Below, one piece after another: positions 10,033 to 37,549 of a DNA stretch of 64,000 nt. The stretch covers positions 1,700 to 65,699 of the forward strand of contig NZ_DAHUXJ010000068.1 of the NCBI RefSeq assembly GCF_027307225.1, in the 5' to 3' direction. The notes beneath the pieces were generated by a model. It was not told the origin of the DNA. It ran no database searches and saw only the letters and a program-made list of their open reading frames with translations. Within the stretch, counting starts at the first letter, position 1. Every line of letters begins with the position of its first letter. A program made the position numbers and the translations under genes. This DNA is from Bradyrhizobium sp. (GTDB lineage Bacteria > Pseudomonadota > Alphaproteobacteria > Rhizobiales > Xanthobacteraceae).

Positions 10033-10125
10033 ATGGCCCTTCGTCCCTTCGTCAGTCAGCTGAGCGTGGTGACGGCGTACCTCGCATTTGCCTTTGTCGG
10101 CGCGATCGTGTTGGGCGTGTTCTGA
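10033..10125 (+). CDS. 30-aa single-pass membrane peptide (not in ORF track)
   Basis: GGAG RBS 7 nt upstream; MALRPFVSQLSVVTAYLAFAFVGAIVLGVF; followed directly by an intrinsic terminator. Confidence 0.65.
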   Translation: MALRPFVSQLSVVTAYLAFAFVGAIVLGVF

Positions 10126-10148
10126 CCTCATCCGGTCATTCGGTTTCG

Positions 10149-10181
10149 AAAACCGGCGGGTCTTTGACCCGCCGGTTTTTT
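10149..10181 (+). terminator. Rho-independent terminator
   Basis: AAAACCGGCGGGTC-TTT-GACCCGCCGGTTTTTT. Confidence 0.85.
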
Positions 10182-10318
10182 GCGCCGAGGAGCCGCGTGC
10201 AATCGCCGGCCTCCCTGACGCGGACGTTCATGCCGCGTTCAGCCGATACCGGCCTCAATTGTTTAAATACATTTCTTGCTGCATCAGTGGCTCTTTGGGC
10301 AGGGCGGATTTCCAAAAC

Positions 10319-11623
10319 ATGCATCTTTCAACGACGACCCCGCATCATCGCGGATCCAGCGCGGCACGACGGTGGTCGCGGGTGCTTGCGATACTGTCAG
10401 GCGTTGCGCTCGCAGGTCTTGCGCTGGCCGGTCCGGCGCTGGCCTATCCCGCACCGGATGCAACGGATGTCGACATCATACTGCCGTTGGCGAGCGCAAT
10501 CGGTGCCCAAATCCAACTGGCGCAGGCGCAGCCGCCAGCGCCTTCACCTGCCCCCGCTGCGGCTTCCTCGCAGCCGGCTTCTTCCACCCAGCCCGCCGCA
10601 TCGGACGAGCCGATCGGCAATGTCGCGACGCTGACAGGCACGGCAAGCGTCATCCGCAACCAGAACACGCTTCCGCTCAAGTTGAAGGATGACATCTACC
10701 TCAATGACGTGTTGGTGACATTTACCGATTCCACGCTCGGCGTCACCTTCAACGATGCCACGACCTTCAACCTCACCGCCAGCGCCTCCATCAAGGTCGA
10801 CGACTTTGTCTATCAGGAGGGCGGCCAGCAGAACTCGGCGCTGTTCGACGTCACCAAGGGCACCGTCGCCTTTGTCGCCTCCGCCGTCGCCAAGACCGGC
10901 AACATGAAAATCGCAACGCCGACCGCAACGCTGGGCATTCGCGGCACCACCGGACTTGTCGAGGTGAATGGCGCCGGCGGCGGCGCGCATAACATCAAGC
11001 TCTATCCCGATCCGGACGGCCATGTCGGCATCATCGAGGTGACCGATCGCAATGGCGTGCGGCTCGGCACGCTCACACGAGGCGCGAGCGGCTTCACCAT
11101 CCGCGCCGGCGCCGGCGGCCGCATCACCGCCGCGCCGCTGACGATTTCGCCGCGAGAGGCCGCGCGCGACCAGGGCATCGTGCGCCAGGTGCATGCGGCG
11201 CAGAATATCGGCCGCCAGGTCGTGAGCGAACAACGCGCGCTGCGGCGCGCCAACCCGAACCGAAACAACAACCAGCGTAATGCTCCGGCTCGGCCCGGCC
11301 AGCAGCGGCAGAACAATCTGCAGCAACGTCCGGGTGGCCCGCAGCAACATGCTTTGCCCAACAACCGCAGCGGCCAACAAGGCCGGCCGGGCGAGCCGAA
11401 CCGCGCGACGGAGCAAGGGAAGCCGGGTCAACCAAATCGCGCCGGCCAGCCGGGTCAACCCGGTCAGCCGAATCGCGCGACCGGGCAAGTGCGGCCCCAA
11501 CAACCGCCCGGCGCGCAGCGGCCCAATGCGCCGGCGCTGCGCCAGGGCGGATTGCCGAACCGCCCCGCCGCACCCCGCCGTCCACCGCCGCCACGGAAAC
11601 CGCCGAAGGAGAAGCGGCGGTAG
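10319..11623 (+). CDS. FecR-domain exported protein with Q/P/R/N-rich low-complexity tail
   Basis: Signal-like N-terminus, FecR-type segment (LKLKDDIYLNDVLVT...ATPTATLGIRGT), repeated GQPGQPNRA units in the tail. Confidence 0.85.
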   Translation: MHLSTTTPHHRGSSAARRWSRVLAILSGVALAGLALAGPALAYPAPDATDVDIILPLASAIGAQIQLAQAQPPAPSPAPAAASSQPASSTQPAASDEPIGNVATLTGTASVIRNQNTLPLKLKDDIYLNDVLVTFTDSTLGVTFNDATTFNLTASASIKVDDFVYQEGGQQNSALFDVTKGTVAFVASAVAKTGNMKIATPTATLGIRGTTGLVEVNGAGGGAHNIKLYPDPDGHVGIIEVTDRNGVRLGTLTRGASGFTIRAGAGGRITAAPLTISPREAARDQGIVRQVHAAQNIGRQVVSEQRALRRANPNRNNNQRNAPARPGQQRQNNLQQRPGGPQQHALPNNRSGQQGRPGEPNRATEQGKPGQPNRAGQPGQPGQPNRATGQVRPQQPPGAQRPNAPALRQGGLPNRPAAPRRPPPPRKPPKEKRR

Positions 11624-11753: not shown

Positions 11754-12620
11754 TTATCCCATCTTCCGCAATAGCGGCTGCCCGGCCTTGATGCGCACGC
11801 CTTCGCGCACGTTGGGGCAGAACTCGAAACGACCCGGCGTCAGCACGATGATGGTCGAGCCGTGCTCGAACCAGCCGAGTTCATCGCCCTTCTTCACCGT
11901 CGCGTCACAAGGATAGACGGTGGGCGCTTGAGTTTGTGCATTCAACGTCCGATCGATGCAGTGAAGGCGGAGGCTCGCGACCAGGATGGCCGCAACCGGA
12001 ACAATCGTCAGCGCTTCGCCCGAGGGGAGACGGGTTTCGATCACCGCGCGCTCGTTCTTGCAGAACAGCTTTTCGACGCGCTTGAGCGCGATCGGATTGA
12101 CGTTCCAGGTATCGCCACTGATGAAAGTGACGCGTTCGACCCTGAAATCCGCCGGCGCGTGGAAGCGGTGATACATGCTCGAGGTCAGCCGCAAGGTGAC
12201 GAAGCGGCCGTTGCGGTGGGTTTCGACCAGTTCGGGCATGCCCAGGAGATCGAGCAGCGAATAATTCGCGCCCTTGATCTGGAACAACTCGGTGTCCTCG
12301 ATCGCGCCATGCGCGCCGATGATCGCATCGCTCGGGCTTGTGACGATTGCAGGGTCAGGATCGAACGGACGCAGGCCATCCTTCAGTTCGCGCGTGAAAC
12401 AATCGTGCAGGCTCCTGAACTCGGCCTTTTTGGCCTCCGCGAGATCGAGGTCCGAAAACAGCCGCCAGAGCGCAATCGAGGCGGCGCAGACATAGGGATT
12501 TTCGATTTTGCTGAACCAGCCCATGAAGCGCGTCACAGCCGCGCGCGGAATCCGGTTGGTCAGGAGGAAGTTAAGATCCTCCTGCTCGCTCACGGCTGCG
12601 ATCAGGCCTTTGACTGTCAT
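11754..12620 (-). CDS. psd: Phosphatidylserine decarboxylase proenzyme
   Basis: DCFTRELKDGLRP, YHRFHAP, KNERAV and the pyruvoyl self-cleavage motif FEHGSTII. Confidence 0.9.
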   Translation of the reverse strand: MTVKGLIAAVSEQEDLNFLLTNRIPRAAVTRFMGWFSKIENPYVCAASIALWRLFSDLDLAEAKKAEFRSLHDCFTRELKDGLRPFDPDPAIVTSPSDAIIGAHGAIEDTELFQIKGANYSLLDLLGMPELVETHRNGRFVTLRLTSSMYHRFHAPADFRVERVTFISGDTWNVNPIALKRVEKLFCKNERAVIETRLPSGEALTIVPVAAILVASLRLHCIDRTLNAQTQAPTVYPCDATVKKGDELGWFEHGSTIIVLTPGRFEFCPNVREGVRIKAGQPLLRKMG

Positions 12621-12631
12621 GAATCTGTTAG
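12614..12631 (+). promoter_or_regulatory. Putative Pho box (PhoB site)
   Basis: CTGTCAT-GAAT-CTGTTAG, 7/7 and 5/7 matches to CTGTCAT-N4-CTGTCAY. It points toward the aminotransferase and overlaps the psd start codon. Confidence 0.5.
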
Positions 12632-12640
12632 ATCGAGGCG

Positions 12641-12807
12641 CTAGTGTGGCGATTCAAAAGTCCGCATCATTGATGCCGCGAGTTCGTCATGCGGACTTTG
12701 GAATCAAAGCCACACTAGGTAATTTAAGTTGGCTAGTGTCCTATCGATTCCGAAGTTCGTAAGCAAGGAGCCGCAACGTGGTACGAACTTCGGAATCGGG
12801 ACATTAG
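12641..12807. repeat. CTAG-bounded hairpin doublet, copy 3
   Basis: CTAGTGTGGC-GATTCAAAAGTCCGCAT...ATGCGGACTTTGGAATC-AAA-GCCACACTAG, linker, second module ending in a degenerate TTAG. Confidence 0.9.
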
Positions 12808-12818
12808 CTGCTTCTGGC

Positions 12819-14477
12819 ATGGATTCGTCTCTCCCGATTCTCTCGCTGTCCGCAGCGGTGGTGGCCGCCGCCGCCTTCCCGAAGATCAAGGCGCGGCTGG
12901 ATTTGTCGCGCGCCAAGCACCACTCGCTGACCGGACATTCGAAGATGTCGCGGCGGGTGGCACGGCTGCTGCCTTTCTATGAATTTTCCGGCGACCAATA
13001 TTTTGCCGCCGATGGCGCGCCACCGGAAATCGCGAGCCAGCGAAAGGACGCCTTCTTTGCGCTCGCGAAGCTTTACGCCGAACGCTACGCCAAGGGACGG
13101 CAGATGACGGCGGAGGCGGCGGACCGGGTCTCCGACCTGCAGTTCACCCGCGCCTATCGCGTGCCGTTCCAGTTCTCTCGTCTGGTGCAGCAGAACCTCG
13201 GCACCTCGGCATTCACCGAAAAATCGTCCGGCGTCACCGTCACCGACGTCGATGGCAATTTGTTCTACGACCTCACCGGCTCCTACGGCGTCAACATCTT
13301 CGGCAACGACTTCTACAAGGAGTGCATCGTCGAAGGCGAGAAGCGCGCCCGTGCGCTCGGCCCCGTACTCGGCAGCTACCATCCCGTCGTCGCCGAGAAT
13401 GTGCGGCGCATCTGCGAGATCTCCGGGCTCGACGAAGTCTCGTTCCACATGTCCGGCACTGAAGCCGTGATGCAGGCGGTGCGTCTCGCCCGTTACCACA
13501 CCAGGCGCACGCATCTGGTTCGCTTCGCCGGCGCCTATCACGGCTGGTGGGGCGACGTGCAGCCCGGTGTGGGCAATCCGCTTCCCGCCCACGAGACCTA
13601 TACGCTCGCCGACATGTCGGAGAAGACCCTGCATGTCTTGAGAACACGCCGCGACATCGCCTGCGTGCTGGTCAACCCGTTGCAGGCACTGCATCCGAAC
13701 GCCAACGCACCGGGCGATTCCACGCTGGTCGATTCCTCGCGAACCGCGCATTTCGACCGCGAGGCCTATGCCGCATGGCTGCAGGAACTGCGCAAGGTCT
13801 GCGACCAGCGCGGCATCGTCATGGTCTTCGACGAGGTGTTTCTCGGTTTTCGCATCGCGCCCGGCGGCGCGCAGGAGTATTTCGGCGTGCGTGCCGACAT
13901 GGTGACTTACGGCAAGAGCCTTGCCGGCGGGCTTCCCATCGGCGTCGTCTGCGGCAAGAAGGAGTTGATGCGCCGCTTCCGCGACGATCGTCCCGCCGAC
14001 ATCTGCTTTGCCCGCGGCACCTTCAACGCGCACCCCTATGTCATGACGGCGATGGACGAGTTCCTGTCGCGGCTCGCAAGCCCGAACTTCCGCGGCATCT
14101 ATCAGGGGCTGGACGAGACCTGGAACGGCCGCGCCGCGCGGCTTAACGCGCGGCTCGCGGGCGAAAACCTTCCCGTGCGTGTCGCCAATTTCTCCTCGGT
14201 CTGGACGGCGCAATATACCGAACCCTCCCGCTACAACTGGATGTTCCAGTATTACCTGCGCGCCGAAGGCCTTGCTTTGAGTTGGGTCGGCAGCGGCCGC
14301 TTCATCTTCAGCCTGAATTTCACCGACGCCGATTTTGCCGAGGTCGAGCAGCGTTTCGTCACGGCGGCTGAAAAGATGAAGCGCGACGGCTGGTGGTGGC
14401 ACCCGCCTGAGCTGACCAACAAGGCGATCCGCCGCCAGATCCTCAAAGAGATGCTGAGGAGCCGGTTTCGGCGCTGA
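12819..14477 (+). CDS. Class III PLP aminotransferase (GSAM/HemL-like fold) with N-terminal hydrophobic anchor and extension
   Basis: SGTEAV, AYHG, FDEVFLGFR, TYGKSLAGGLPIG (PLP lysine), GTFNAHP; 552 aa; N-terminus LPILSLSAAVVAAAAFP. Confidence 0.9.
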   Translation: MDSSLPILSLSAAVVAAAAFPKIKARLDLSRAKHHSLTGHSKMSRRVARLLPFYEFSGDQYFAADGAPPEIASQRKDAFFALAKLYAERYAKGRQMTAEAADRVSDLQFTRAYRVPFQFSRLVQQNLGTSAFTEKSSGVTVTDVDGNLFYDLTGSYGVNIFGNDFYKECIVEGEKRARALGPVLGSYHPVVAENVRRICEISGLDEVSFHMSGTEAVMQAVRLARYHTRRTHLVRFAGAYHGWWGDVQPGVGNPLPAHETYTLADMSEKTLHVLRTRRDIACVLVNPLQALHPNANAPGDSTLVDSSRTAHFDREAYAAWLQELRKVCDQRGIVMVFDEVFLGFRIAPGGAQEYFGVRADMVTYGKSLAGGLPIGVVCGKKELMRRFRDDRPADICFARGTFNAHPYVMTAMDEFLSRLASPNFRGIYQGLDETWNGRAARLNARLAGENLPVRVANFSSVWTAQYTEPSRYNWMFQYYLRAEGLALSWVGSGRFIFSLNFTDADFAEVEQRFVTAAEKMKRDGWWWHPPELTNKAIRRQILKEMLRSRFRR

Positions 14478-14488
14478 AGTCCTCTCTC

Positions 14489-14621
14489 TTATCCCTCCCC
14501 CCGCGAGCATAGCGAGTGGTGGGGAGGCTCGACGCGCGCCGTAGGCTAGCGTCGGGGTGGGGGGAATTGCCGCGAACCCGCGCCCCCCACCCTGATCTCC
14601 GCTTCGCGGGGGGAGGGATAA
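14489..14621. repeat. CCCTCCCCC...GGGGGAGGG palindromic intergenic repeat
   Basis: Terminal inverted repeat TTATCCCTCCCCCC / GGGGGGAGGGATAA; lies between convergent genes. Confidence 0.85.
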
Positions 14622-14728
14622 AAGGCAATTCACGATGCACCAAAACATAGATGCCCGGGACATCTAACGCGAAGACGCGCTTCGCGCTTTTGCCCGGGCA
14701 TGAGAAGTCACTGACATTGAATCGGGTT

Positions 14729-15364
14729 TCAGGCCTGCTTTTCGACGAGCTCGTTGTGCTCGATGATGTCGAGGCCCGGATCGATCAGTTCGCCGCGCAG
14801 CAGGGCGAGCGGCGCCTTGCAATAGAGCTTGAAGTCGTTGAAGGGGTCGGTGAGGATCTTGGTCATCCAGACGAGGCCGGTTTCGACGTCACGGATGAAG
14901 AACAGCTGCACGGTGCGGAACAGAAGACCACCGATGCCGACGAACAGCCAGATCCTGGCGACCTGCCGCATGAAATCGGCCGGTGTGACCCACGGATCGG
15001 CCAGACCGAACAGCGTCGGATCGAAGTAGAGCACGATCGGCGAGGCCGCCCAAATCGTCATCAGCACTACCTTGCGGCGCAGGTTATAGCCGACCTTGAT
15101 CGCTTCCTTGTGCTCGTGGGACGCGTCGTTGAGATGATCGTAGTCGCGCGGCTCGAAGAAGAAGTGCCCGGCCTGGCGCGAGGTCATCGAGACCAGCCAG
15201 CCGATCAGCGCCGACATCAAGGGATCGAAGAACATCATCGCATAGCCGATCAGGAAACTTGCGGCACTGACGAAGTGCAGGCTCTGATTGATCCGGCTGT
15301 GATGGTAGAAGCGATGGTCGTCCCAGCGCTGGATCCGCAACTGCTCCAGGAAATTCTTGATCAT
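14729..15364 (-). CDS. Membrane protein with Mpo1/DUF962-like histidine motifs
   Basis: FYHHSRINQSLH and RQAGHFFFE resemble the Mpo1/DUF962 H..N..H and GH.FFE pattern; several TM helices; GAGG RBS. Confidence 0.65.
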   Translation of the reverse strand: MIKNFLEQLRIQRWDDHRFYHHSRINQSLHFVSAASFLIGYAMMFFDPLMSALIGWLVSMTSRQAGHFFFEPRDYDHLNDASHEHKEAIKVGYNLRRKVVLMTIWAASPIVLYFDPTLFGLADPWVTPADFMRQVARIWLFVGIGGLLFRTVQLFFIRDVETGLVWMTKILTDPFNDFKLYCKAPLALLRGELIDPGLDIIEHNELVEKQA

Positions 15365-15438
15365 GGTCATCCTCAAAAGGGGTGAGTCAAAGGAACGGTA
15401 CGGGATTTCGATGTCCGGTGTGTGACATCATCAAGATG

Positions 15439-16146
15439 TCACACACCATCACGCGACGCGGCTGTCGTAAAACCGTGTCTGAGCTTCCGGATCCGCACCA
15501 GCGAGAAGTGACCGAGCGGCGGAATCAGACGGCGTTCCGCAAGTTCGACGCTGTTCGCGCCCGAGAGCCAGCGCGCGTAGCGCGACCACGCGAACTCGGC
15601 GGTGCGGAAGCCGAGCCGGCGCACCACCGGCTGCAAACCCTGCTCGATGAAGCGGCGCAATCCGTCATCGGCGCTGACCCGGGTCAGGATGATCAGTTCG
15701 CCACCCGGTCGCAACACGCGGGCAAACTCATCAAGCGCCACTTCGGGGTTAGGCACCGCGGTGACGACATATTGCGCCATCACGACATCGAAGGAATTGT
15801 CGGGGAATTCGAGCTTCTCGGCATCCATCACCGCGAGCCCCTCGACGTTCTTCAATTTCTGCTCGGCAACGCGCTTTCTCGCCTTGTTGAGCATGGCCTC
15901 CGAAATGTCGGTGCCGAAGATGCGCACATGCGGCGCATACAACGGCAACGAAATCCCGGTGCCGACGCCGACCTCGAGCACGCGGCCGCCGAGCTTGTTG
16001 GTCGCCTGGATCGCGGCATCGCGTCCCTTCGAGAACACGCCGCCGAACACAAGGTCGTAAATCGGAGCCCAGCGGTCATACGCCTGTTCGACCGTCTCGC
16101 GGTCGAAGTCGAGCTGAGTGCCGTCGAGTTTGATGCTCTCTGCCAT
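15439..16146 (-). CDS. SAM-dependent phospholipid N-methyltransferase (Rhodobacter PmtA / PmtX type)
   Basis: AYDRWAPIYDLVFG, VLEVGVGTGISL, MDAEKLEFPDNSFDVV, RVLRPGGEL. Confidence 0.85.
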   Translation of the reverse strand: MAESIKLDGTQLDFDRETVEQAYDRWAPIYDLVFGGVFSKGRDAAIQATNKLGGRVLEVGVGTGISLPLYAPHVRIFGTDISEAMLNKARKRVAEQKLKNVEGLAVMDAEKLEFPDNSFDVVMAQYVVTAVPNPEVALDEFARVLRPGGELIILTRVSADDGLRRFIEQGLQPVVRRLGFRTAEFAWSRYARWLSGANSVELAERRLIPPLGHFSLVRIRKLRHGFTTAASRDGV

Positions 16147-16210
16147 GATGATTTTCTCGTTTTCCTCGTCCAGTACTGATCCCAACCCGCGGATCCAGGC
16201 ATCGTTGTGG

Positions 16211-17275
16211 TTAGGTTCGTGAGCCGCCGACCGCATGGCTTTCGCTTGCGATCGTGACGGGCCGCGGTGCGCGGCTCGGCTGCAACGCACTCAAATTAGC
16301 GATGAACTGACGCGCGCTGTTTTCCCAGGAGCGCTCCAGCGCAAACTGGCGACAGGTTTCGCGCGACATCGTGAGCGCGCGTAAGCACGCAGCGCGCAGG
16401 TCGTTGTCGAGCGCGCCGATCGGATGGCCTGATATCACGTCGATCGGGCCCGTCACCGGAAACGCAGCAACCGGCGCGCCGCAGGCGAGCGCTTCAAGCT
16501 GCACGACGCCAAACGTGTCGGTGAGACTCGGAAATACGAAGACGTCGGCTGCGGCGAGATGCGCGGTGAGGTCCGCGCCCTTCTTTTCGCCCAGGAATTT
16601 GACATCAGGATATTTTTGCGCGAGCTCGCGGCGCTGTGGCCCGTCGCCAATCACGACTTTCGAGCCGGGCAGATCGAGCGACAGAAACGCCTCGATGTTC
16701 TTCTCGATCGCGACGCGCCCCATGGTCATGAAGATCGGGCGCGGCAGATCGAGCGTTGCCGGGTGATCCGGATTGAACAAATCGGTATCGACGCCCCGTC
16801 CCCAGAAGGCGAGCTTGCGGAAGCCGCGCGCGGAGAGCTCGTTATAAAGAGAGGGGACCGCGACCATGGTCGTCGCCGCCGCGTTATGGAAATAGCGCAG
16901 CACCGCGTAAGGCACCGACGCCGGAACGATCGAGCGAACCGCGATATATTCGGGAAACCGCGTCGTATAGGACGTCGTGAAGGCAAGTCCATGACGGCGG
17001 CAATAGGCCCTCGCCGCCCAGCCGACCGGCCCCTCGGTGGCGATATGGATCGCCTCGGGATTCGCTGCCTCGATGCGCCGTGCGATCTCGCACCGGTTGG
17101 GCCAGGCGACCTGAAGGCCCGGATAGGTCGGAAGATCCATCGAGGGAAAACCCTCGGGCGTCAGGAACTGAACGTCGCCGCCCAGCGAGCCGGCTGCCCG
17201 CCGCAGCGAAGTCAGCGTGCGCACCACGCCGTTGACCTGCGGATGCCAGGCGTCTGTCGCTATCAGGATTCGCAT
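16211..17275 (-). CDS. GT4 glycosyltransferase (Agt-like glycolipid synthase family)
   Basis: MRILIATDAWHPQVNGVVRTL, IHIATEGPVG, FVFPSLTDTFGVVQLEALACGAPV. Confidence 0.9.
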   Translation of the reverse strand: MRILIATDAWHPQVNGVVRTLTSLRRAAGSLGGDVQFLTPEGFPSMDLPTYPGLQVAWPNRCEIARRIEAANPEAIHIATEGPVGWAARAYCRRHGLAFTTSYTTRFPEYIAVRSIVPASVPYAVLRYFHNAAATTMVAVPSLYNELSARGFRKLAFWGRGVDTDLFNPDHPATLDLPRPIFMTMGRVAIEKNIEAFLSLDLPGSKVVIGDGPQRRELAQKYPDVKFLGEKKGADLTAHLAAADVFVFPSLTDTFGVVQLEALACGAPVAAFPVTGPIDVISGHPIGALDNDLRAACLRALTMSRETCRQFALERSWENSARQFIANLSALQPSRAPRPVTIASESHAVGGSRT

Positions 17276-17278
17276 CGG

Positions 17279-17446
17279 TCAGTGCCCACTTTCCGAAGTT
17301 CGTGTTCCGCCTCAGCACCCATCTTTCACGAACTTCGGAAAGCCATGGGCACTGCCAAATTTTCGATTCTAGTGTCGCTTTCCATTTGAAGTCCCCGAAC
17401 TGGACTCGCCGCTTGCGGAGCGGGGACTTCAAATGGGCGGCACTAG
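17279..17446. repeat. CTAG-bounded hairpin doublet, copy 4
   Basis: AGTGCCCA-CTTTCCGAAGTTCGTG...CACGAACTTCGGAAAG-CCA-TGGGCACT, linker, CTAGTGTCGC-TTT-CCATTTGAAGTCCCCG...CGGGGACTTCAAATGG-GCGGCACTAG. Confidence 0.9.
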
Positions 17447-17821
17447 CCTTCCGATTCGGCCTTGCTGATTCCTTGAGGCGCGACGTTGCGTCAGAGATAT
17501 TTCAGGCGTGTGACGTCATGGAGGTTAACGACTTTGATTTTCGGATCGCTGCCGTTTCCTCGGTTCCTGCTCCCGCACAGCTCTCGTTTTCCCGCTTCTT
17601 GACAGCGAGATGAAGCATCTGATGAAGCAACCAAGCCATTCTCGAGTGTCGGGTGATCATCGAAGGCGGTGCCCCCGGCCCTTTCTTCTTTCCGCCCGGT
17701 TACAATTCGAACACATTGCCGCCCGGCTTTAAGGGCTTAAGCCTGTCTATGCCGAGCCGCTGCACTGGCGCCGACCTGCCCGCCCCTGTAAAATCCTCCG
17801 TTGAATCAGCCTGGGGGGACA

Positions 17822-19369
17822 ATGCGGCTTAAGATCATTCTGCTCGCGATCGCGGTGGTGGCGGGATCGTTTTTTGTCAGCCTGAAGGTGATGGATTGGG
17901 TGTCGCCGCGCGGGAGCTTGCGCCCGGCCGCCGTCGCCAACCTGCCGCCGTTGCCGCCCGCTCCCGGCAGTTCGGTGATCCTGGCGCAGGTGACGATTCC
18001 CATTACCGCGATCCGCAATGCGGCTGACCGCGGCGCACCACGCAACTTTTCAGGTAAGGCCGAAAATCCGGTCTCGCAGCTTCTGCAAAACGCCGATATC
18101 GGCTGGACCGCCTCGCGCGGGCCGATCGGGATCACCGGCGGGCAGGACACGTTGTCGCTGAACACCGCGCTGACCGGAAGACTGAACGTCGCCGGTTCGC
18201 TGGCGGCCAAGACAACGGGCGCGGTGGGTGATGCGATCGGCGGACTGCTTGGGACCAATGTCAGCAAGCAGATCGCCAGCATCAACATCAAGAATGTGAA
18301 TGCCAACGCCGAGATCAAGGGCAATGTGACCGTGACGGCGCGGCCGAAATTCGGCGCCAACTGGCGCATCGAGCCGAACCTGAGCGGCCAGGTCAATCTC
18401 GGCGACACCACCATGTCGGTCGCCGGCGCGCGCCTCAACGTTCCTACGGAGATCAAGCCGCTGCTCGACAAGAACGTCGCCGATCAGATCGTAGCCGCGG
18501 ACAACCGCATCCACAACGACTCCTCGTTCGAGCACAACGCGCGCATTCAGTGGGCCAAGGCGTGCCGCTCGATCCCATTGCAAACGAGCAGCGCCCCGGC
18601 GCCGCCGCTGTGGCTTGAATTGCGGCCGACGCGGGCGGTCGCGGTGCAGCCTAACGTGAGCGCGACGGCGGTCACCATGACGGTTGGCATCGAGGCGGAA
18701 ACCCGCATCACGTCGAAGCAGACCACGCCGCTGTGCCCGTTCCCGGCAAAGCTTTCGGTAGTGCCGCCGACGCAGCCGGCCGTGGCCATCGATATCCCGA
18801 TCGACATTCCCTTTACCGAAGTCGACAAGATCGTCGAAGCGCAGCTGGTCGGGCGTACCTTCCCCGAGGACGGCTCGGGTTCGGTGAACGTGACCGTGAA
18901 GCGCGCCGAGGTTTCCGCTTCGGGCGACCGGCTTTTGATTTCGCTCCTGCTCCACGCCAAGGAGAAAAGCTTCTTCTCGTTGGGCGGCGAGGCGACCGTG
19001 CATATCTGGGGCAAGCCGGTGCTCGACAAGGCGAACCAGATCCTGCGGCTCACCGACGTCGAGATGGGGGTTGAATCGGAGGCCGCCTTCGGTCTGCTCG
19101 GAGCGGCGGCTCGCGCGGTCATGCCGCATCTGCAAAAGACGCTGGCCGAGAAGACCACGGTGGACTTGAAGCCGTTCCTGGGCGATGCGCAGAAGATGAT
19201 CGCAAGCGCCATCTCCGATTTGCAGAAGAACGACGACAGCGTGCGGGTGACGACGGCTGTTAGCAGCCTCGCGCTCGCGGACATCGCCTACGATTCCAGG
19301 ACGCTACGCCTGATTGCCGAGGTCTCCGGCACCATCAATGTCACGGTGGCGGCGCTCCCGGGGCTTTGA
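17822..19369 (+). CDS. DUF4403-family exported protein
   Basis: N-terminal TM, beta-rich body, WAKACRSIPL...PLWLELRP, ATVHIWGKPVLD. Confidence 0.75.
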   Translation: MRLKIILLAIAVVAGSFFVSLKVMDWVSPRGSLRPAAVANLPPLPPAPGSSVILAQVTIPITAIRNAADRGAPRNFSGKAENPVSQLLQNADIGWTASRGPIGITGGQDTLSLNTALTGRLNVAGSLAAKTTGAVGDAIGGLLGTNVSKQIASINIKNVNANAEIKGNVTVTARPKFGANWRIEPNLSGQVNLGDTTMSVAGARLNVPTEIKPLLDKNVADQIVAADNRIHNDSSFEHNARIQWAKACRSIPLQTSSAPAPPLWLELRPTRAVAVQPNVSATAVTMTVGIEAETRITSKQTTPLCPFPAKLSVVPPTQPAVAIDIPIDIPFTEVDKIVEAQLVGRTFPEDGSGSVNVTVKRAEVSASGDRLLISLLLHAKEKSFFSLGGEATVHIWGKPVLDKANQILRLTDVEMGVESEAAFGLLGAAARAVMPHLQKTLAEKTTVDLKPFLGDAQKMIASAISDLQKNDDSVRVTTAVSSLALADIAYDSRTLRLIAEVSGTINVTVAALPGL

Positions 19370-22328: not shown

Positions 22329-23075
22329 ATGCCTGCTGTGCCGCCAAACATCCTGGTCGTCGAAGACGACCGTGAAACGCGGGCCTTGATTGCGAAATAT
22401 CTCCGCAACAACGCCTGCAACGTTATCACCGCCAATGACGGGCGCGAAATGGCTCGCGCCATGACCGACCATCGCGTCGATCTCGTGATTCTTGACGTCA
22501 TGCTGCCCGGCGAAGACGGCTTGAGTCTGTGTCGCAAGATCCGTGGCGACTCGCAAGTGCCTATCATCATGCTGACCGCACGCGGCGAGGACGTCGATCG
22601 AATCCTCGGCCTCGAGATGGGCGCCGACGACTATCTGGCCAAACCCTTCAATCCGCGCGAGCTGCTCGCCCGCATCAATGCGGTGCTGCGCAGGCTGGCC
22701 GCCGCGCAAACCGCGAGCGCCGTGATGGGCGCAACCGCGCTGACCTTCCAGGGCTGGCGGATCGATTTCCGCCTGCGCGAATTGCGCAATCCGGCGGGCG
22801 CGCGCGTGGCGATGACATCGGCCGAGTTCGACCTGCTGCGCGCGTTTTGCGAGCGGCCGGGACGCGTGCTCTCGCGCGACAGCCTGCTCGATCTGACCCA
22901 AGGCCGCAGCGCCGGTTCGTTCGAACGCTCGATCGATGTGCTGGTGAGCCGGATCCGCCGCAAGATCGAAACCGATCCGCAGGATTCCAGCATGATCAAG
23001 ACCGTCCGCTCGGGCGGCTATCTGTTCACGCCGGCGGTGGAGGCGGCTACAGCCCCCCTCGATGCCGTCAAATGA
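22329..23075 (+). CDS. OmpR-family response regulator
   Basis: ILVVEDD, ILDVMLPGEDG, GADDYLAKPF and a C-terminal wHTH (RSIDVLVSRIRRKIE...IKTVRSGGY). Confidence 0.95.
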   Translation: MPAVPPNILVVEDDRETRALIAKYLRNNACNVITANDGREMARAMTDHRVDLVILDVMLPGEDGLSLCRKIRGDSQVPIIMLTARGEDVDRILGLEMGADDYLAKPFNPRELLARINAVLRRLAAAQTASAVMGATALTFQGWRIDFRLRELRNPAGARVAMTSAEFDLLRAFCERPGRVLSRDSLLDLTQGRSAGSFERSIDVLVSRIRRKIETDPQDSSMIKTVRSGGYLFTPAVEAATAPLDAVK

Positions 23076-37232: not shown

Positions 37233-37549
37233 CCCGCACCTCCTTTTGTTGCCTTGCCTGAAATGGCGCACGATTCATATTCTCAAATGAGCGGAAAGCC
37301 AATTCGCCTTTGGCGGCGAGACGATGTCTCGCCGCCTCTCGTCGCCTCCTTTGGTGCCGCCGGCGAAGGCCTCGGGCGTGATGACCCGCAACATGAGCGA
37401 TCCAGGCGCGGGCAAGCCGCCGGCAATCACGCGCTTGCTACTGGCGCCGATAGAGCTTTTGCCGCAGGACTGCCCCGTTCAGCGCCCTCGTGCGGTCGAC
37501 ATTGGCCACCTTGCGGTGCCTGGGGATCCATCATTTGGGGAGACTTTTC

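What the first reader, a model, noticed from the sequence alone, without database searches (positions are those of the whole stretch)
11754..17275. Candidate uncharacterised membrane-lipid remodelling cluster
Five lipid-related genes are contiguous: Psd (pyruvoyl decarboxylase), a membrane-anchored class III aminotransferase, an Mpo1/DUF962-like protein, a Pmt-type N-methyltransferase and a GT4 resembling the phosphate-starvation glycolipid synthase Agt. Psd plus Pmt explains PS to PE to PC (established). The aminotransferase and Mpo1-like protein have no place in that route. Together they suggest synthesis or breakdown of an amino-headgroup or hydroxy-acyl lipid (inference), with a Pho-box-like site in the divergent promoter.
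Basis: partly seen in the sequence, partly recalled or inferred. Interest (0 to 1): 0.7.

Follow-up and report, generated by a model that had tools for sequence, protein, structure and literature searches.

The report
Conserved phosphate-starvation membrane-lipid gene cluster
Five neighbouring genes in this Bradyrhizobium-like genome form a conserved unit that most likely builds or edits an unknown amine-bearing membrane lipid under phosphate starvation. Its three-gene core occurs in soil, freshwater and apparently marine Proteobacteria, and I found no description of it in the papers searched.

Summary
At 11754-17275 lie a phosphatidylserine-decarboxylase paralog (Psd2), an N-terminally anchored class-III PLP enzyme (AT), a DUF962/Mpo1-like membrane protein, a Rhodobacter-type Pmt-like methyltransferase (MT) and an Agt-clade GT4. 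The order is psd<- ->AT <-DUF962 <-MT <-GT4.

Psd2, AT and DUF962 are adjacent in every locus examined: 80 Bradyrhizobium/Nitrobacter loci, 20 other loci of the family, and 16 from six other families including Polynucleobacter. In one 401-genome sample all 28 genomes with AT also carry DUF962. MT (alphaproteobacteria only) and a GT4 are accessory.

The Pho-box-like site is real. It scores 12/14, is conserved in position, and the same consensus marks this genome's pstS. Relatives carry a second box upstream of GT4.

Three labels need revising:
- Psd2 is a second, divergent copy with both phosphate-contact residues changed.
- AT is closest to the beta-keto-acyl amine-transferase domain of MycA, not HemL.
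- The GT4 has the Agt motifs but lacks the catalytic His104.

The product is unknown. My best guess is oxygenase, then transaminase, then decarboxylase, then optional N-methylation on a lipid head group. This is an uncharacterised variant of phosphate-stress lipid remodelling.

The parts
11754..12620 (-). psd2: E. coli-type (long) phosphatidylserine-decarboxylase paralog, 288 aa
   Evidence: PF02666 E 2.5e-54; TIGR00163 166 bits, above its 112 cut-off. Aligns to E. coli PSD 7cnw/6l06 at E 1e-29, with D90, H144, H147 and the GST cleavage site kept; Y137 is R and S166 is N. A second, short-type psd lies at G000:C71.
12614..12631 (+). Pho-box-like direct repeat CTGTCATGAATCTGTTAG, overlapping the psd2 start codon and pointing towards AT
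   Evidence: 12 of 14 consensus positions. Relatives score 11-13 of 14 at the same place. The pstS promoter of this genome has a 13/14 box in the same orientation.
12645..12812 (.). About 165-bp insertion of two palindromic repeat units between the Pho box and the AT start codon, specific to this genome
   Evidence: Relatives have only about 34 bp between the two start codons. Inverted repeats lie at 12651-12705 and 12745-12798. The core TTCCGAAGTTCG occurs 647 times in the genome.
12819..14477 (+). AT: N-terminally anchored class-III PLP enzyme, 552 aa, with a conserved 120-aa N-terminal extension and a basic amphipathic C-terminus
   Evidence: PF00202. Best PDB sequence match is the MycA AMT domain 6kfm, E 1e-50 and 176 bits, against 124 bits for HemL. 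AF2 model pLDDT 83; the Foldseek top hit is also 6kfm, followed by GSA aminomutases and beta-transaminases. The Lys of YGK is invariant (K366). All NCBIfam cut-offs are missed.
14648..14666 (-). Terminator-like hairpin with T-run just after the DUF962 stop codon
   Evidence: The number of such sites in the region is at chance level; only the position is suggestive.
14729..15376 (-). DUF962/Mpo1-like helical membrane protein, 215 aa, His-rich
   Evidence: Pfam Mpo1-like 18.6 bits, below the gathering score of 24; ortholog 24.7 bits; Atlas clusters named DUF962. Invariant D19, D20, H21, H25, H34, H71 and E75 in 18 orthologs. AF2 pLDDT 86, with no PDB fold match.
15439..16146 (-). MT: Rhodobacter-type phospholipid N-methyltransferase-like protein, 235 aa, 26.1 kDa
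   Evidence: PDB 8ys9 E 1e-44. Catalytic Tyr10, Trp13 and Phe21 are kept. NF045882 156 bits against a cut-off of 390. A 56%-identical paralog lies at G000:C108.
16211..17275 (-). GT4 of the Agt/GTcp clade, 354 aa, with Thr in place of the catalytic His104
   Evidence: Motifs GRVAIEKN (186-193) and FPSLTDTFG (248-256) are present; position 104 is Thr (SYTT). It is 57-58% identical to the His-bearing paralogs that sit next to a PlcP-like gene in L089 and L097.
17277..17447 (.). Two further palindromic repeat units inserted upstream of GT4
   Evidence: Sequence read. They are flanked by CTAG like the units at 12645-12812 and share the TTCCGAAGTTCG core.
17599..17616 (-). Degenerate copy (10/14) of the second Pho-box-like site, upstream of the GT4-MT-DUF962 operon
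   Evidence: GCTTCATCTCGCTGTCAA. The homologous site scores 12-13/14 about 150 bp upstream of GT4 in many relatives, for example CTGTCATCTCGCTGTCAC in L009.

Best explanation
The five genes are one membrane-lipid head-group module that belongs to the phosphate-starvation (PhoB) response.

Shown:
- Psd2, AT and DUF962 form an invariant, horizontally mobile triad.
- A GT4 lipid glycosyltransferase, an N-methyltransferase (alphaproteobacteria only), and in some lineages flippase-like, PlcP-like, PHP-like and UDP-glucose-dehydrogenase genes, are attached to the triad.
- Pho-box-like sites sit in front of AT and of the GT4 operon.

Inferred mechanism:
1. Under phosphate limitation PhoB switches on AT and GT4-MT-DUF962.
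2. The GT4 glycosylates diacylglycerol released by a PlcP-type phospholipase. Because His104 is replaced by Thr, the donor sugar or the acceptor probably differs from those of characterised Agt.
3. The His-rich DUF962 protein, a presumed non-haem-iron oxygenase like yeast Mpo1, oxidises a hydroxyl or hydroxy-acid on a lipid head group to a carbonyl.
4. The membrane-anchored AMT-like PLP enzyme converts that carbonyl to an amine.
5. The pyruvoyl enzyme Psd2 removes the neighbouring carboxylate, leaving a primary amine of PE type.
6. In alphaproteobacteria the Pmt-like MT methylates that amine towards a choline-like group.

The net effect would be an amine-bearing or zwitterionic lipid that takes over part of the role of PE/PC when phosphorus is scarce. 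The identity of the precursor, and therefore of the product, is unknown.
For: Synteny:
- All five genes in 76 of 80 Bradyrhizobium/Nitrobacter loci. Two of the other four end at a contig edge; two lack GT4.
- psd-AT-DUF962-MT in 20 of 20 further loci of the family.
- The triad is adjacent in 16 of 16 loci from families f2, f76, f147, f225, f233 and f244.

Co-occurrence and descent:
- In one 401-genome sample, 28 genomes have AT and all 28 have DUF962. The two genomes with DUF962 only are 73%-complete MAGs.
- All five non-family genomes tested have a separate psd elsewhere.
- The trees of the three proteins give the same family-level clades.

Lipid and phosphate context in relatives:
- UDP-glucose dehydrogenase in the same operon, an MFS next to GT4b, and a START-like protein.
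- An MprF-flippase-like gene, 205 bits.
- PlcP-like metallophosphoesterases, an S1/P1 nuclease and a lysophospholipase-like hydrolase.
- A possible PHP phosphoesterase fused to GT4.

Pho boxes. A 12/14 box also lies about 50 bp upstream of this genome's PlcP-like gene.

Enzymology:
- AT is closest to the MycA AMT domain and to beta-transaminases.
- Psd2 has intact catalytic residues.
- MT keeps Tyr10, Trp13 and Phe21.
- DUF962 has invariant His, Asp and Glu residues.
- No OlsB homolog was found in this genome. A BtaA search also found nothing, but that search had no positive control.
Against: - No lipid, transcript or enzyme activity was observed. No RNA run holds this DNA.
- The order of the three core reactions is pure chemical logic. 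No known bacterial lipid has the required hydroxy-acid head group.
- AMT-type enzymes make beta-amino compounds, whereas a pyruvoyl decarboxylase needs an alpha-amino acid.
- The DUF962 assignment rests on a sub-threshold Pfam hit, and only the yeast enzyme has been characterised.
- Psd2 passes NCBI's equivalog cut-off for PS decarboxylase, so it may simply make PE.
- Genome-wide, 12/14 Pho-box matches occur at chance frequency: 18 seen, about 19 expected. The family f225 operons show no clear box.
- In this window both boxes are separated from their genes by inserted repeats, and the second box is degenerate.
- The loci compared are related, so the counts overstate independence.
Confidence: 0.45

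Rival explanations
1. Phosphorus salvage or head-group catabolism. Psd2 funnels PS into PE. The class-III PLP enzyme acts on the ethanolamine head group as a transaminase or as a phospho-lyase, as the class-III-fold ethanolamine-phosphate phospho-lyase does. DUF962 oxidises the fragment. Diacylglycerol or phosphatidate is freed for the GT4. In alphaproteobacteria the MT converts PE to PC for a PC-specific PlcP.
For: - Psd2 and MT are bona fide members of phospholipid-acting families with intact catalytic residues.
- Arg at the Tyr137 position occurs in about 15% of PSDs (PMC7952604).
- Pho boxes and neighbouring PlcP-like, nuclease and hydrolase genes fit phosphorus scavenging.
- From my own knowledge, phospho-lyases exist within the class-III fold.
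Against: - AT is nearest to the AMT, GSA-aminomutase and beta-transaminase group, not to the AGXT2-like group that contains the phospho-lyases.
- A membrane anchor is not needed for a soluble phospho-alcohol.
- Spending three SAM to make PC only to degrade it is costly.
- The role of DUF962 is ad hoc.
Confidence: 0.2
2. Lipid-linked amino-sugar pathway, analogous to Ugd/ArnA/ArnB. The GT4 makes a glucuronosyl lipid. DUF962 oxidises it to a 4-keto-uronate, which is a beta-keto acid. The beta-selective AT aminates it to an amino-uronate or amino-pentose glycolipid, which the MT may methylate. Psd2 plays a side role.
For: - Ugd lies in the same operon in f225, and nearby in L125 and L130.
- A GT4 is adjacent in 33 of the 39 loci (window included) compared.
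- AT's nearest relatives act on beta-keto or beta-amino substrates.
- A tentative keto-glucuronosyl diacylglycerol was reported in phosphate-starved Burkholderia cenocepacia (PMC13691135).
- Replacement of His104, which contacts sugar O6 in MshA, hints at a different sugar.
Against: - The invariant partner Psd2 has no chemical role, because a pyruvoyl enzyme cannot decarboxylate a beta-keto or beta-amino acid.
- The triad occurs without any adjacent GT4 in f147, in f76 and in one f2 locus.
- The beta/gamma-proteobacterial GT4b is a different GT4, only 30-38% identical.
Confidence: 0.15
3. Soluble small-molecule pathway. The PSD-family enzyme decarboxylates a free amino acid, as PsiD does with tryptophan. 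The AMT-like enzyme and the oxygenase tailor a secreted or signalling amine. The lipid genes are merely neighbours.
For: - A PSD-family enzyme acting on a non-lipid substrate exists: PsiD (PMC11929908, listed).
- AT-like domains occur inside 2400-2800-aa megasynthases.
- Psd2's phosphate-contact residues are changed.
Against: - AT has an N-terminal hydrophobic anchor and a basic amphipathic C-terminus, and DUF962 is an integral membrane protein.
- Psd2 aligns with E. coli PSD from residue 21, including the N-terminal region.
- Lipid glycosyltransferases, flippase-like genes and PlcP-like genes recur next to the triad in unrelated lineages.
- No carrier-protein, ligase or exporter genes typical of metabolite clusters are conserved there.
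Confidence: 0.07
4. Unrelated neighbours. Psd2 and MT are a spare PS to PE to PC line, and AT, DUF962 and GT4 have independent functions.
For: Synteny within a single family could be inherited by descent alone.
Against: - Adjacency holds across classes in three different gene orders, including a single-strand operon in f225.
- Co-occurrence is 28 of 28.
- AT and DUF962 are both broken in G842.
- The three proteins share the same family-level clades.
Confidence: 0.03

Closest known systems
PlcP-Agt phosphate-starvation lipid-remodelling operons (Sinorhizobium, Agrobacterium Agt atu2297, SAR11 GTcp, Burkholderia plcP-agt-dagK)
   Same: - The GT4 carries both clade motifs, GRVAxEKN and FPSxTDTFG, including the clade-specific Asp.
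- Pho-box-like sites are present.
- PlcP-like genes sit next to the cluster in several relatives, and one with its own box lies elsewhere in this genome.
   Different: - The cluster GT4 has Thr instead of the essential His104.
- No plcP lies in the window.
- The core of the cluster (Psd2, AT, DUF962) has no counterpart in those operons.
Phosphatidylserine decarboxylase, E. coli type (PDB 6l06, 7cnw)
   Same: Same fold family. Asp90, His144, His147 and the Gly-Ser-Thr self-cleavage site are kept, and the protein passes the TIGR00163 cut-off.
   Different: - It is a second copy beside a housekeeping psd.
- It is only 30-33% identical to the canonical long PSD of the same betaproteobacterial genomes, but 52-66% identical among cluster copies from other families.
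- Phosphate contacts are changed in every ortholog: Tyr137 to Arg, Ser166 to Asn.
- LGST is replaced by (H/Q)GST.
Amine-transferase (AMT) domain of mycosubtilin synthase MycA (PDB 6kfm/6kfu) and the GSA-aminomutase / beta-transaminase subgroup of class-III PLP enzymes
   Same: Best sequence match (E 1e-50) and best fold match (TM 0.82 on the target, 29% identity). The PLP lysine is conserved.
   Different: - It is free-standing rather than part of a megasynthase.
- It has a hydrophobic N-terminal anchor, a conserved 120-residue N-terminal extension and a basic C-terminal helix.
- No carrier protein is encoded nearby.
Yeast Mpo1 (Fe2+-dependent 2-hydroxy fatty acid dioxygenase), Pfam PF06127/DUF962
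   Same: Weak profile match over the N-terminal His-rich helices. It is a membrane protein with conserved His, Asp and Glu residues.
   Different: - The match is below Pfam's threshold in the window protein.
- I found no characterised bacterial member in my searches.
- There is no solved structure to compare with.
Rhodobacter-type phospholipid N-methyltransferases (Rubellimicrobium PmtA 8ys9; Bradyrhizobium PmtX1/PmtX2)
   Same: Full-length match at E 1e-44, with catalytic Tyr10, Trp13 and Phe21 conserved.
   Different: - It falls below the NCBIfam equivalog cut-off.
- At 26.1 kDa it fits the reported 24 kDa of PmtX1 less well than the 23.2-kDa paralog at G000:C108 does, so it may be the poorly characterised PmtX2. 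This is an inference.
Ugd/ArnA/ArnB aminoarabinose pathway and BtaA/BtaB betaine-lipid pathway
   Same: The overall logic is the same: oxidise, decarboxylate and transaminate a uronic acid, or add and then N-methylate an amino-acid head group under phosphate stress. Ugd is present in some versions of the cluster.
   Different: The enzyme families are unrelated. There is no ArnA-type dehydrogenase, no DegT-type aminotransferase, and no BtaA was found.

Membership tests
Phosphatidylserine decarboxylase (PF02666 / TIGR00163) | Profile match above the curated cut-off | tested here: met
   PF02666 184 bits (cut-off 22); TIGR00163 166 bits (cut-off 111.75).
Phosphatidylserine decarboxylase (PF02666 / TIGR00163) | Self-cleavage site Gly-Ser and catalytic Asp90/His144/His147 | tested here: met
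   HGST, PSDA and YHRFHAP align with the E. coli residues in the window protein and in 37 orthologs.
Phosphatidylserine decarboxylase (PF02666 / TIGR00163) | Phosphate-contacting Tyr137 and Ser166 of E. coli PSD (PMC7952604) | tested here: not met
   Arg and Asn in all 37 Psd2 orthologs. The canonical Tyr and Ser are present in the housekeeping long PSDs of G1015 and G721. Arg occurs in about 15% of PSDs, so this does not exclude PS as the substrate.
Phosphatidylserine decarboxylase (PF02666 / TIGR00163) | Decarboxylates phosphatidylserine | not testable with these tools
   Needs an enzyme assay.
Glutamate-1-semialdehyde 2,1-aminomutase (HemL), the name given in public annotation | Score above the NCBIfam cut-offs | tested here: not met
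   NF000818 176 bits against 398; TIGR00713 165 bits against 527. The MycA AMT domain scores higher than any HemL structure.
Class-III PLP aminotransferase fold (PF00202) | Profile match and conserved PLP-binding lysine | tested here: met
   PF00202 115 bits. Lys366 in YGK is invariant in 20 orthologs and aligns with the MycA lysine. The fold is confirmed by Foldseek.
Mpo1-like / DUF962 (PF06127) | Profile match above the gathering score | tested here: inconclusive
   Window protein 18.6 bits against 24. Orthologs score 24.7 (L138) and 20.5 (L124). The Atlas neighbours are DUF962/Mpo1-like clusters at a score of 0.99.
Mpo1-like / DUF962 (PF06127) | Fe2+-dependent dioxygenase activity on a 2-hydroxy acid | not testable with these tools
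   Only the conserved His, Asp and Glu residues could be seen.
Rhodobacter-type phospholipid N-methyltransferase | Full-length similarity to a solved R-type PmtA, with catalytic Tyr10 and head-group pocket Trp13 and Phe21 | tested here: met
   8ys9 E 1.2e-44 over residues 16-224. Tyr, Trp and Phe are conserved.
Rhodobacter-type phospholipid N-methyltransferase | NCBIfam equivalog cut-off, and phosphate contacts His117 and Ser120 | tested here: not met
   NF045882 156 bits against 390. The contact positions are Tyr and Thr, but the same holds for the paralog at C108.
Agt/GTcp clade of GT4 diacylglycerol glycosyltransferases | UDP-sugar motifs GRVAxEKN and FPSxTDTFG, with Asp in place of the GT4 signature Glu | tested here: met
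   GRVAIEKN at 186-193 and FPSLTDTFG at 248-256.
Agt/GTcp clade of GT4 diacylglycerol glycosyltransferases | Catalytic dyad His104 (the H104A mutant of GTcp is inactive) | tested here: not met
   Thr104 (SYTT) here and in 92 of about 100 cluster orthologs. His (SFHT) is present in the PlcP-linked paralogs of L089 and L097. The mapping was fixed by the H104A primer, which reads TTSF(H>A)TRF.
Pho regulon | Pho box (CTGTCAT-N4-CTGTCAT) in promoter position | tested here: met
   12/14 at 12614-12631, with 11-13/14 at the same place in relatives. The control is this genome's pstS, 13/14 in the same orientation. A second conserved box lies upstream of GT4 in 60 of 100 loci, against about 5% expected.
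Pho regulon | PhoB binding and induction under phosphate limitation | not testable with these tools
   No RNA run holds this DNA, and no transcriptome paper covering these genes was found.

The most novel reading that the evidence does not exclude
The Psd2 / AMT-like aminotransferase / DUF962 triad is the biosynthetic core for a class of amine-bearing membrane lipid that has not yet been described. In alphaproteobacteria the lipid would be N-methylated; in many lineages it would be glycosylated or paired with a glycolipid. It would be made under phosphate starvation by abundant soil (Bradyrhizobium, Nitrobacter), freshwater (Polynucleobacter) and apparently marine Proteobacteria. This would also give the first function to bacterial DUF962 proteins, the first lipid-acting AMT-type transaminase, and a PSD-family enzyme with a non-PS lipid substrate.
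Probability: 0.35. Interest if true: 0.85.

Novelty: new variant of a known kind. Interest (0 to 1): 0.7.

Why it matters
Replacing phospholipids when phosphorus is scarce is a major adaptation of soil and aquatic bacteria. The known routes are PlcP-Agt glycolipids, BtaAB betaine lipids and OlsBA ornithine lipids.

This module is not one of those routes, yet it shows signs of the same regulation. These proteins carry only generic or misleading names such as 'glutamate-1-semialdehyde aminomutase'.

It is directly testable in cultivable Bradyrhizobium, Nitrobacter and Polynucleobacter strains. It could explain some of the 'unidentified aminolipid' and 'aminophospholipid' spots reported in chemotaxonomy. 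That link is my own suggestion and was not tested.

It would also assign functions to three protein subfamilies at once. [quoted passage not shown]

Tried and rejected
- The + strand ORFs 14651-15385 and 15382-16179 have no family hits. They are antisense shadows of the DUF962 and MT genes.
- The 582-aa TTG start of AT was rejected. It lies inside a repeat insertion that relatives lack.
- HemL identity of AT was rejected on curated cut-offs and on the better AMT match.
- The literature gave nothing on this gene combination, on bacterial DUF962, on Bradyrhizobium phosphate-starvation transcriptomes, or on Polynucleobacter/Limnohabitans lipid remodelling.
- Hacker et al. 2008 (PMC2223695), which would settle PmtX1 against PmtX2, is not held. 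USDA110 locus tags guessed from memory found nothing.
- A fold search with the DUF962 model found no solved structure, and a sequence search of the PDB found none either.
- No RNA-seq run contains this DNA, so read laying was not attempted.
- The BtaA (PF11899) search found nothing anywhere, including in the controls, so it proves nothing.
- The short-type housekeeping PSDs were too distant to align by tblastn, so the residue comparison rests on the two long-type housekeeping PSDs and on E. coli.
- The chemical routes I considered on glucuronosyl-diacylglycerol that start from its C5-C6 end destroy the glycoside, so I dropped them. This is reasoning only.
- A genome-wide count of Pho-box matches is at chance level. 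The argument therefore rests on position, conservation and the pstS and PlcP-like controls, not on the count.

Full report
**What is there.**
The region holds five real genes.
- psd2, 11754-12620 (-), 288 aa: PF02666 E 2.5e-54; TIGR00163 166 bits against a cut-off of 112.
- AT, 12819-14477 (+), 552 aa: PF00202.
- A DUF962/Mpo1-like membrane protein, 14729-15376 (-), 215 aa. Pfam gives only 18.6 bits against 24, but an ortholog reaches 24.7 bits and the Atlas neighbours are DUF962 clusters.
- A methyltransferase, 15439-16146 (-), 235 aa.
- A GT4, 16211-17275 (-), 354 aa.

The + strand ORFs over 14651-16179 are antisense shadows. The layout is psd2<- ->AT <-DUF962 <-MT <-GT4. A terminator-like hairpin follows the DUF962 stop codon.

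The genome is a 5.6-Mb Bradyrhizobium-like MAG. Its best DNA match is a mine-drainage metagenome, and no RNA run holds it.

- Among the 80 best loci (Bradyrhizobium, Nitrobacter), psd2 and AT are always adjacent and all five genes are present in 76. Two of the other four end at a contig edge and two lack GT4.
- Within the family the AT is patchy: 70 of 301 genomes and 18 of 62 genera. In 20 loci from the more distant carriers, psd2-AT-DUF962-MT is present in 20 of 20 and GT4 in 19. In one of those 19 GT4 has moved to the other side of psd2, and the copy in L099 is only 50% identical.
- An even sample of 400 other alphaproteobacterial genomes has a single carrier.
- A 401-genome sample of the phylum shows orthologs at 54-66% identity in families f2, f147, f225, f233 and f244. 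G967 (f244) is a Polynucleobacter. The close relatives of the f225 proteins come from MAGs labelled Gammaproteobacteria, Methylococcales, Cycloclasticus and so on, some from TARA samples.
- In all 16 loci fetched from outside the family, psd2, AT and DUF962 are adjacent.
- In the same 401 genomes, 28 have the AT and all 28 have the DUF962 ortholog. The two genomes with DUF962 only are 73%-complete MAGs. In G842 both genes are broken.
- All five non-family carriers tested have a second psd elsewhere, as does this genome.
- Trees of the three proteins give the same family-level clades. The betaproteobacterial and other alphaproteobacterial copies nest among those of the Bradyrhizobium family. 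This fits transfer of the module as a unit, though the rooting is not established.
- These carriers are related to each other, so the counts are not independent events. The independent evidence is the three different gene orders.

**Three architectures.**
- Alphaproteobacteria: psd2<- ->AT <-DUF962 <-MT (<-GT4).
- f233 and f244: psd2<- ->AT <-DUF962 ->GT4b, followed in three of the five loci by an MFS gene (same strand as GT4b in L124 and L133, opposite strand in L125).
- f225: one operon, AT > (about 500-aa domain fused to GT4) > psd2 > DUF962, followed in two of the five loci (L134, L138) by a UDP-glucose dehydrogenase gene.

Accessory genes in these loci point to lipids and phosphorus:
- GT4b scores best against the GlcNAc-phosphatidylglycerol synthase and monoglucosyl-diacylglycerol synthase models.
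- An MFS and a START-like protein.
- UDP-glucose dehydrogenase.
- An MprF-flippase-like protein next to GT4 in eight loci of the family.
- PlcP-like metallophosphoesterases, an S1/P1 nuclease and a lysophospholipase-like hydrolase.
- The f225 fusion domain may be a PHP phosphoesterase. This is a lead only.

**Pho boxes.**
- The same motif scores 11-13 of 14 at the same position in essentially all Bradyrhizobium/Nitrobacter loci and in about half of the more distant genera.
- Genome-wide there are 18 matches of 12/14 or better against about 19 expected, so the count alone means nothing.
- However, one of the two 13/14 matches sits in front of pstS in the same orientation. Another 12/14 match lies about 50 bp upstream of the genome's PlcP-like metallophosphoesterase.
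- Relatives have a second conserved box about 150 bp upstream of GT4, in 60 of 100 loci at 11/14 or better against about 5% expected. The betaproteobacterial DUF962/GT4b spacers have one too. The f225 operons show none.
- In relatives the psd2 and AT start codons are only about 34 bp apart, so the box would sit at about -41 to -24 of the AT start codon. This suggests a nearly leaderless, PhoB-activated AT transcript. That is an inference.
- In this window about 165 bp of palindromic repeat units are inserted between the box and the AT start (core present 647 times in the genome). Two more units lie upstream of GT4, and the box there is degenerate at 10/14. Pho control may therefore be weakened in this particular genome.

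**The enzymes.**
- Psd2 aligns with E. coli PSD and keeps Asp90, His144, His147 and the Gly-Ser cleavage site. The residues that bind the lipid phosphate in the E. coli structures, Tyr137 and Ser166 (PMC7952604), are Arg and Asn in all 37 orthologs. The housekeeping long PSDs of two carriers keep Tyr and Ser. The PSD family also contains a non-lipid decarboxylase, PsiD (PMC11929908).
- AT misses every NCBIfam cut-off. Its best sequence and fold match is the amine-transferase domain of mycosubtilin synthase MycA (E 1e-50; TM 0.82), followed by GSA aminomutases and beta-transaminases. From my own knowledge, that domain converts a beta-ketoacyl thioester to a beta-aminoacyl thioester. AT has the PLP lysine, a hydrophobic N-terminal segment, a conserved 120-residue extension and a basic C-terminal helix.
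- DUF962 is a helical membrane protein with invariant His21, His25, His34, His71, Asp19, Asp20 and Glu75, and it has no solved structural relative.
- MT matches the R-type PmtA structure 8ys9 over its full length and keeps Tyr10, Trp13 and Phe21. A 56%-identical paralog of 23.2 kDa fits the reported size of PmtX1 better than this 26.1-kDa protein does. The cluster MT may therefore be PmtX2, which reviews describe as not expressed under standard conditions. This is an inference.
- GT4 has both signature motifs of the Agt/GTcp clade, but the dyad His104 (the H104A mutant is inactive) is Thr in 92 of about 100 cluster orthologs. The 57-58%-identical paralogs next to PlcP-like genes keep His. In MshA the equivalent His contacts sugar O6, so a different donor sugar or acceptor is plausible.

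**Interpretation.**
Shown:
- The genes form a conserved, mobile, membrane-associated three-enzyme core with lipid-glycosylation, N-methylation, flipping and phospholipase-type accessories.
- Conserved Pho-box-like sites accompany it.

Inferred:
- The module is induced by phosphate starvation.
- It makes or edits an amine-bearing lipid head group in the order oxygenase, transaminase, decarboxylase, then optional methylation.

The precursor is unknown, and the match between a beta-selective transaminase and an alpha-amino-acid decarboxylase is unresolved. The rival readings are head-group catabolism for phosphorus salvage, an Arn-like aminoglycolipid route, a soluble metabolite pathway, and mere neighbourhood.

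This genome has no OlsB homolog. The BtaA search had no positive control.

**Verdict.**
I found no description of this gene set in the library searched. It is best filed as a new variant of phosphate-stress lipid remodelling, with a fair chance that the product is a new lipid class.

Noticed in passing
window 12645-12812 and 17277-17447: Palindromic repeat units flanked by CTAG are inserted between each Pho-box-like site and its gene. Relatives have about 34 bp between the psd2 and AT start codons, where the window has 198 bp. The core TTCCGAAGTTCG occurs 647 times in the genome.
   Followed up: partly
G000:C41:36634-37437 (-), box at 37489-37506: This genome's PlcP-like metallophosphoesterase (PF00149, 59 bits) lies on another contig, with a 12/14 Pho-box match about 50 bp upstream. 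No His-type Agt paralog was found in the genome.
   Followed up: partly
L097:10663-13175 and L089:5551-7106: Some relatives carry a second set next to the triad: a 42%-identical MT, a PlcP-like gene and a His104-bearing GT4. In L089 this His-type PlcP-GT4 pair replaces the Thr-type GT4.
   Followed up: partly
G842:C5:13308-19251: In one f225 genome both the AT and the DUF962 gene appear broken into pieces. This suggests the two genes decay together.
   Followed up: no
L087:3351-4421 (-); G000:C140:10558-11484 and G000:C41:17840-18754: An MprF-flippase-domain-like gene (NF033480, 205 bits) lies beside GT4 in eight loci of the family. This genome has two copies elsewhere, one just upstream of the pstS Pho box.
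   Followed up: partly
G915:C6:416574-417752, G762:C5:89857-91194, G1015:C1:1345596-1346825: The next-best relatives of the AT (32-35% identity) are domains inside open frames of 2400-2800 aa, presumably PKS/NRPS amine-transferase domains.
   Followed up: no
window 22344-23027 (+): An OmpR/PhoB-family response regulator (196 bits to the PhoB model, below its cut-off) lies 5 kb from the cluster. Homologous ORFs occur near the cluster in six other loci. The true PhoB is on contig C140.
   Followed up: no
window 10088-11623 (+) and 17801-19369 (+): The flanking genes, a FecR-domain protein and a DUF4403 protein, are only variably linked to the cluster in relatives. They mark the edges of the conserved block.
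   Followed up: partly
L138:2344-3900 (+) and homologs in L134-L137: A domain of about 500 aa without Pfam hits is fused to the N-terminus of the GT4 in family f225. Atlas features point weakly to PHP-type phosphoesterases (score 0.92).
   Followed up: partly
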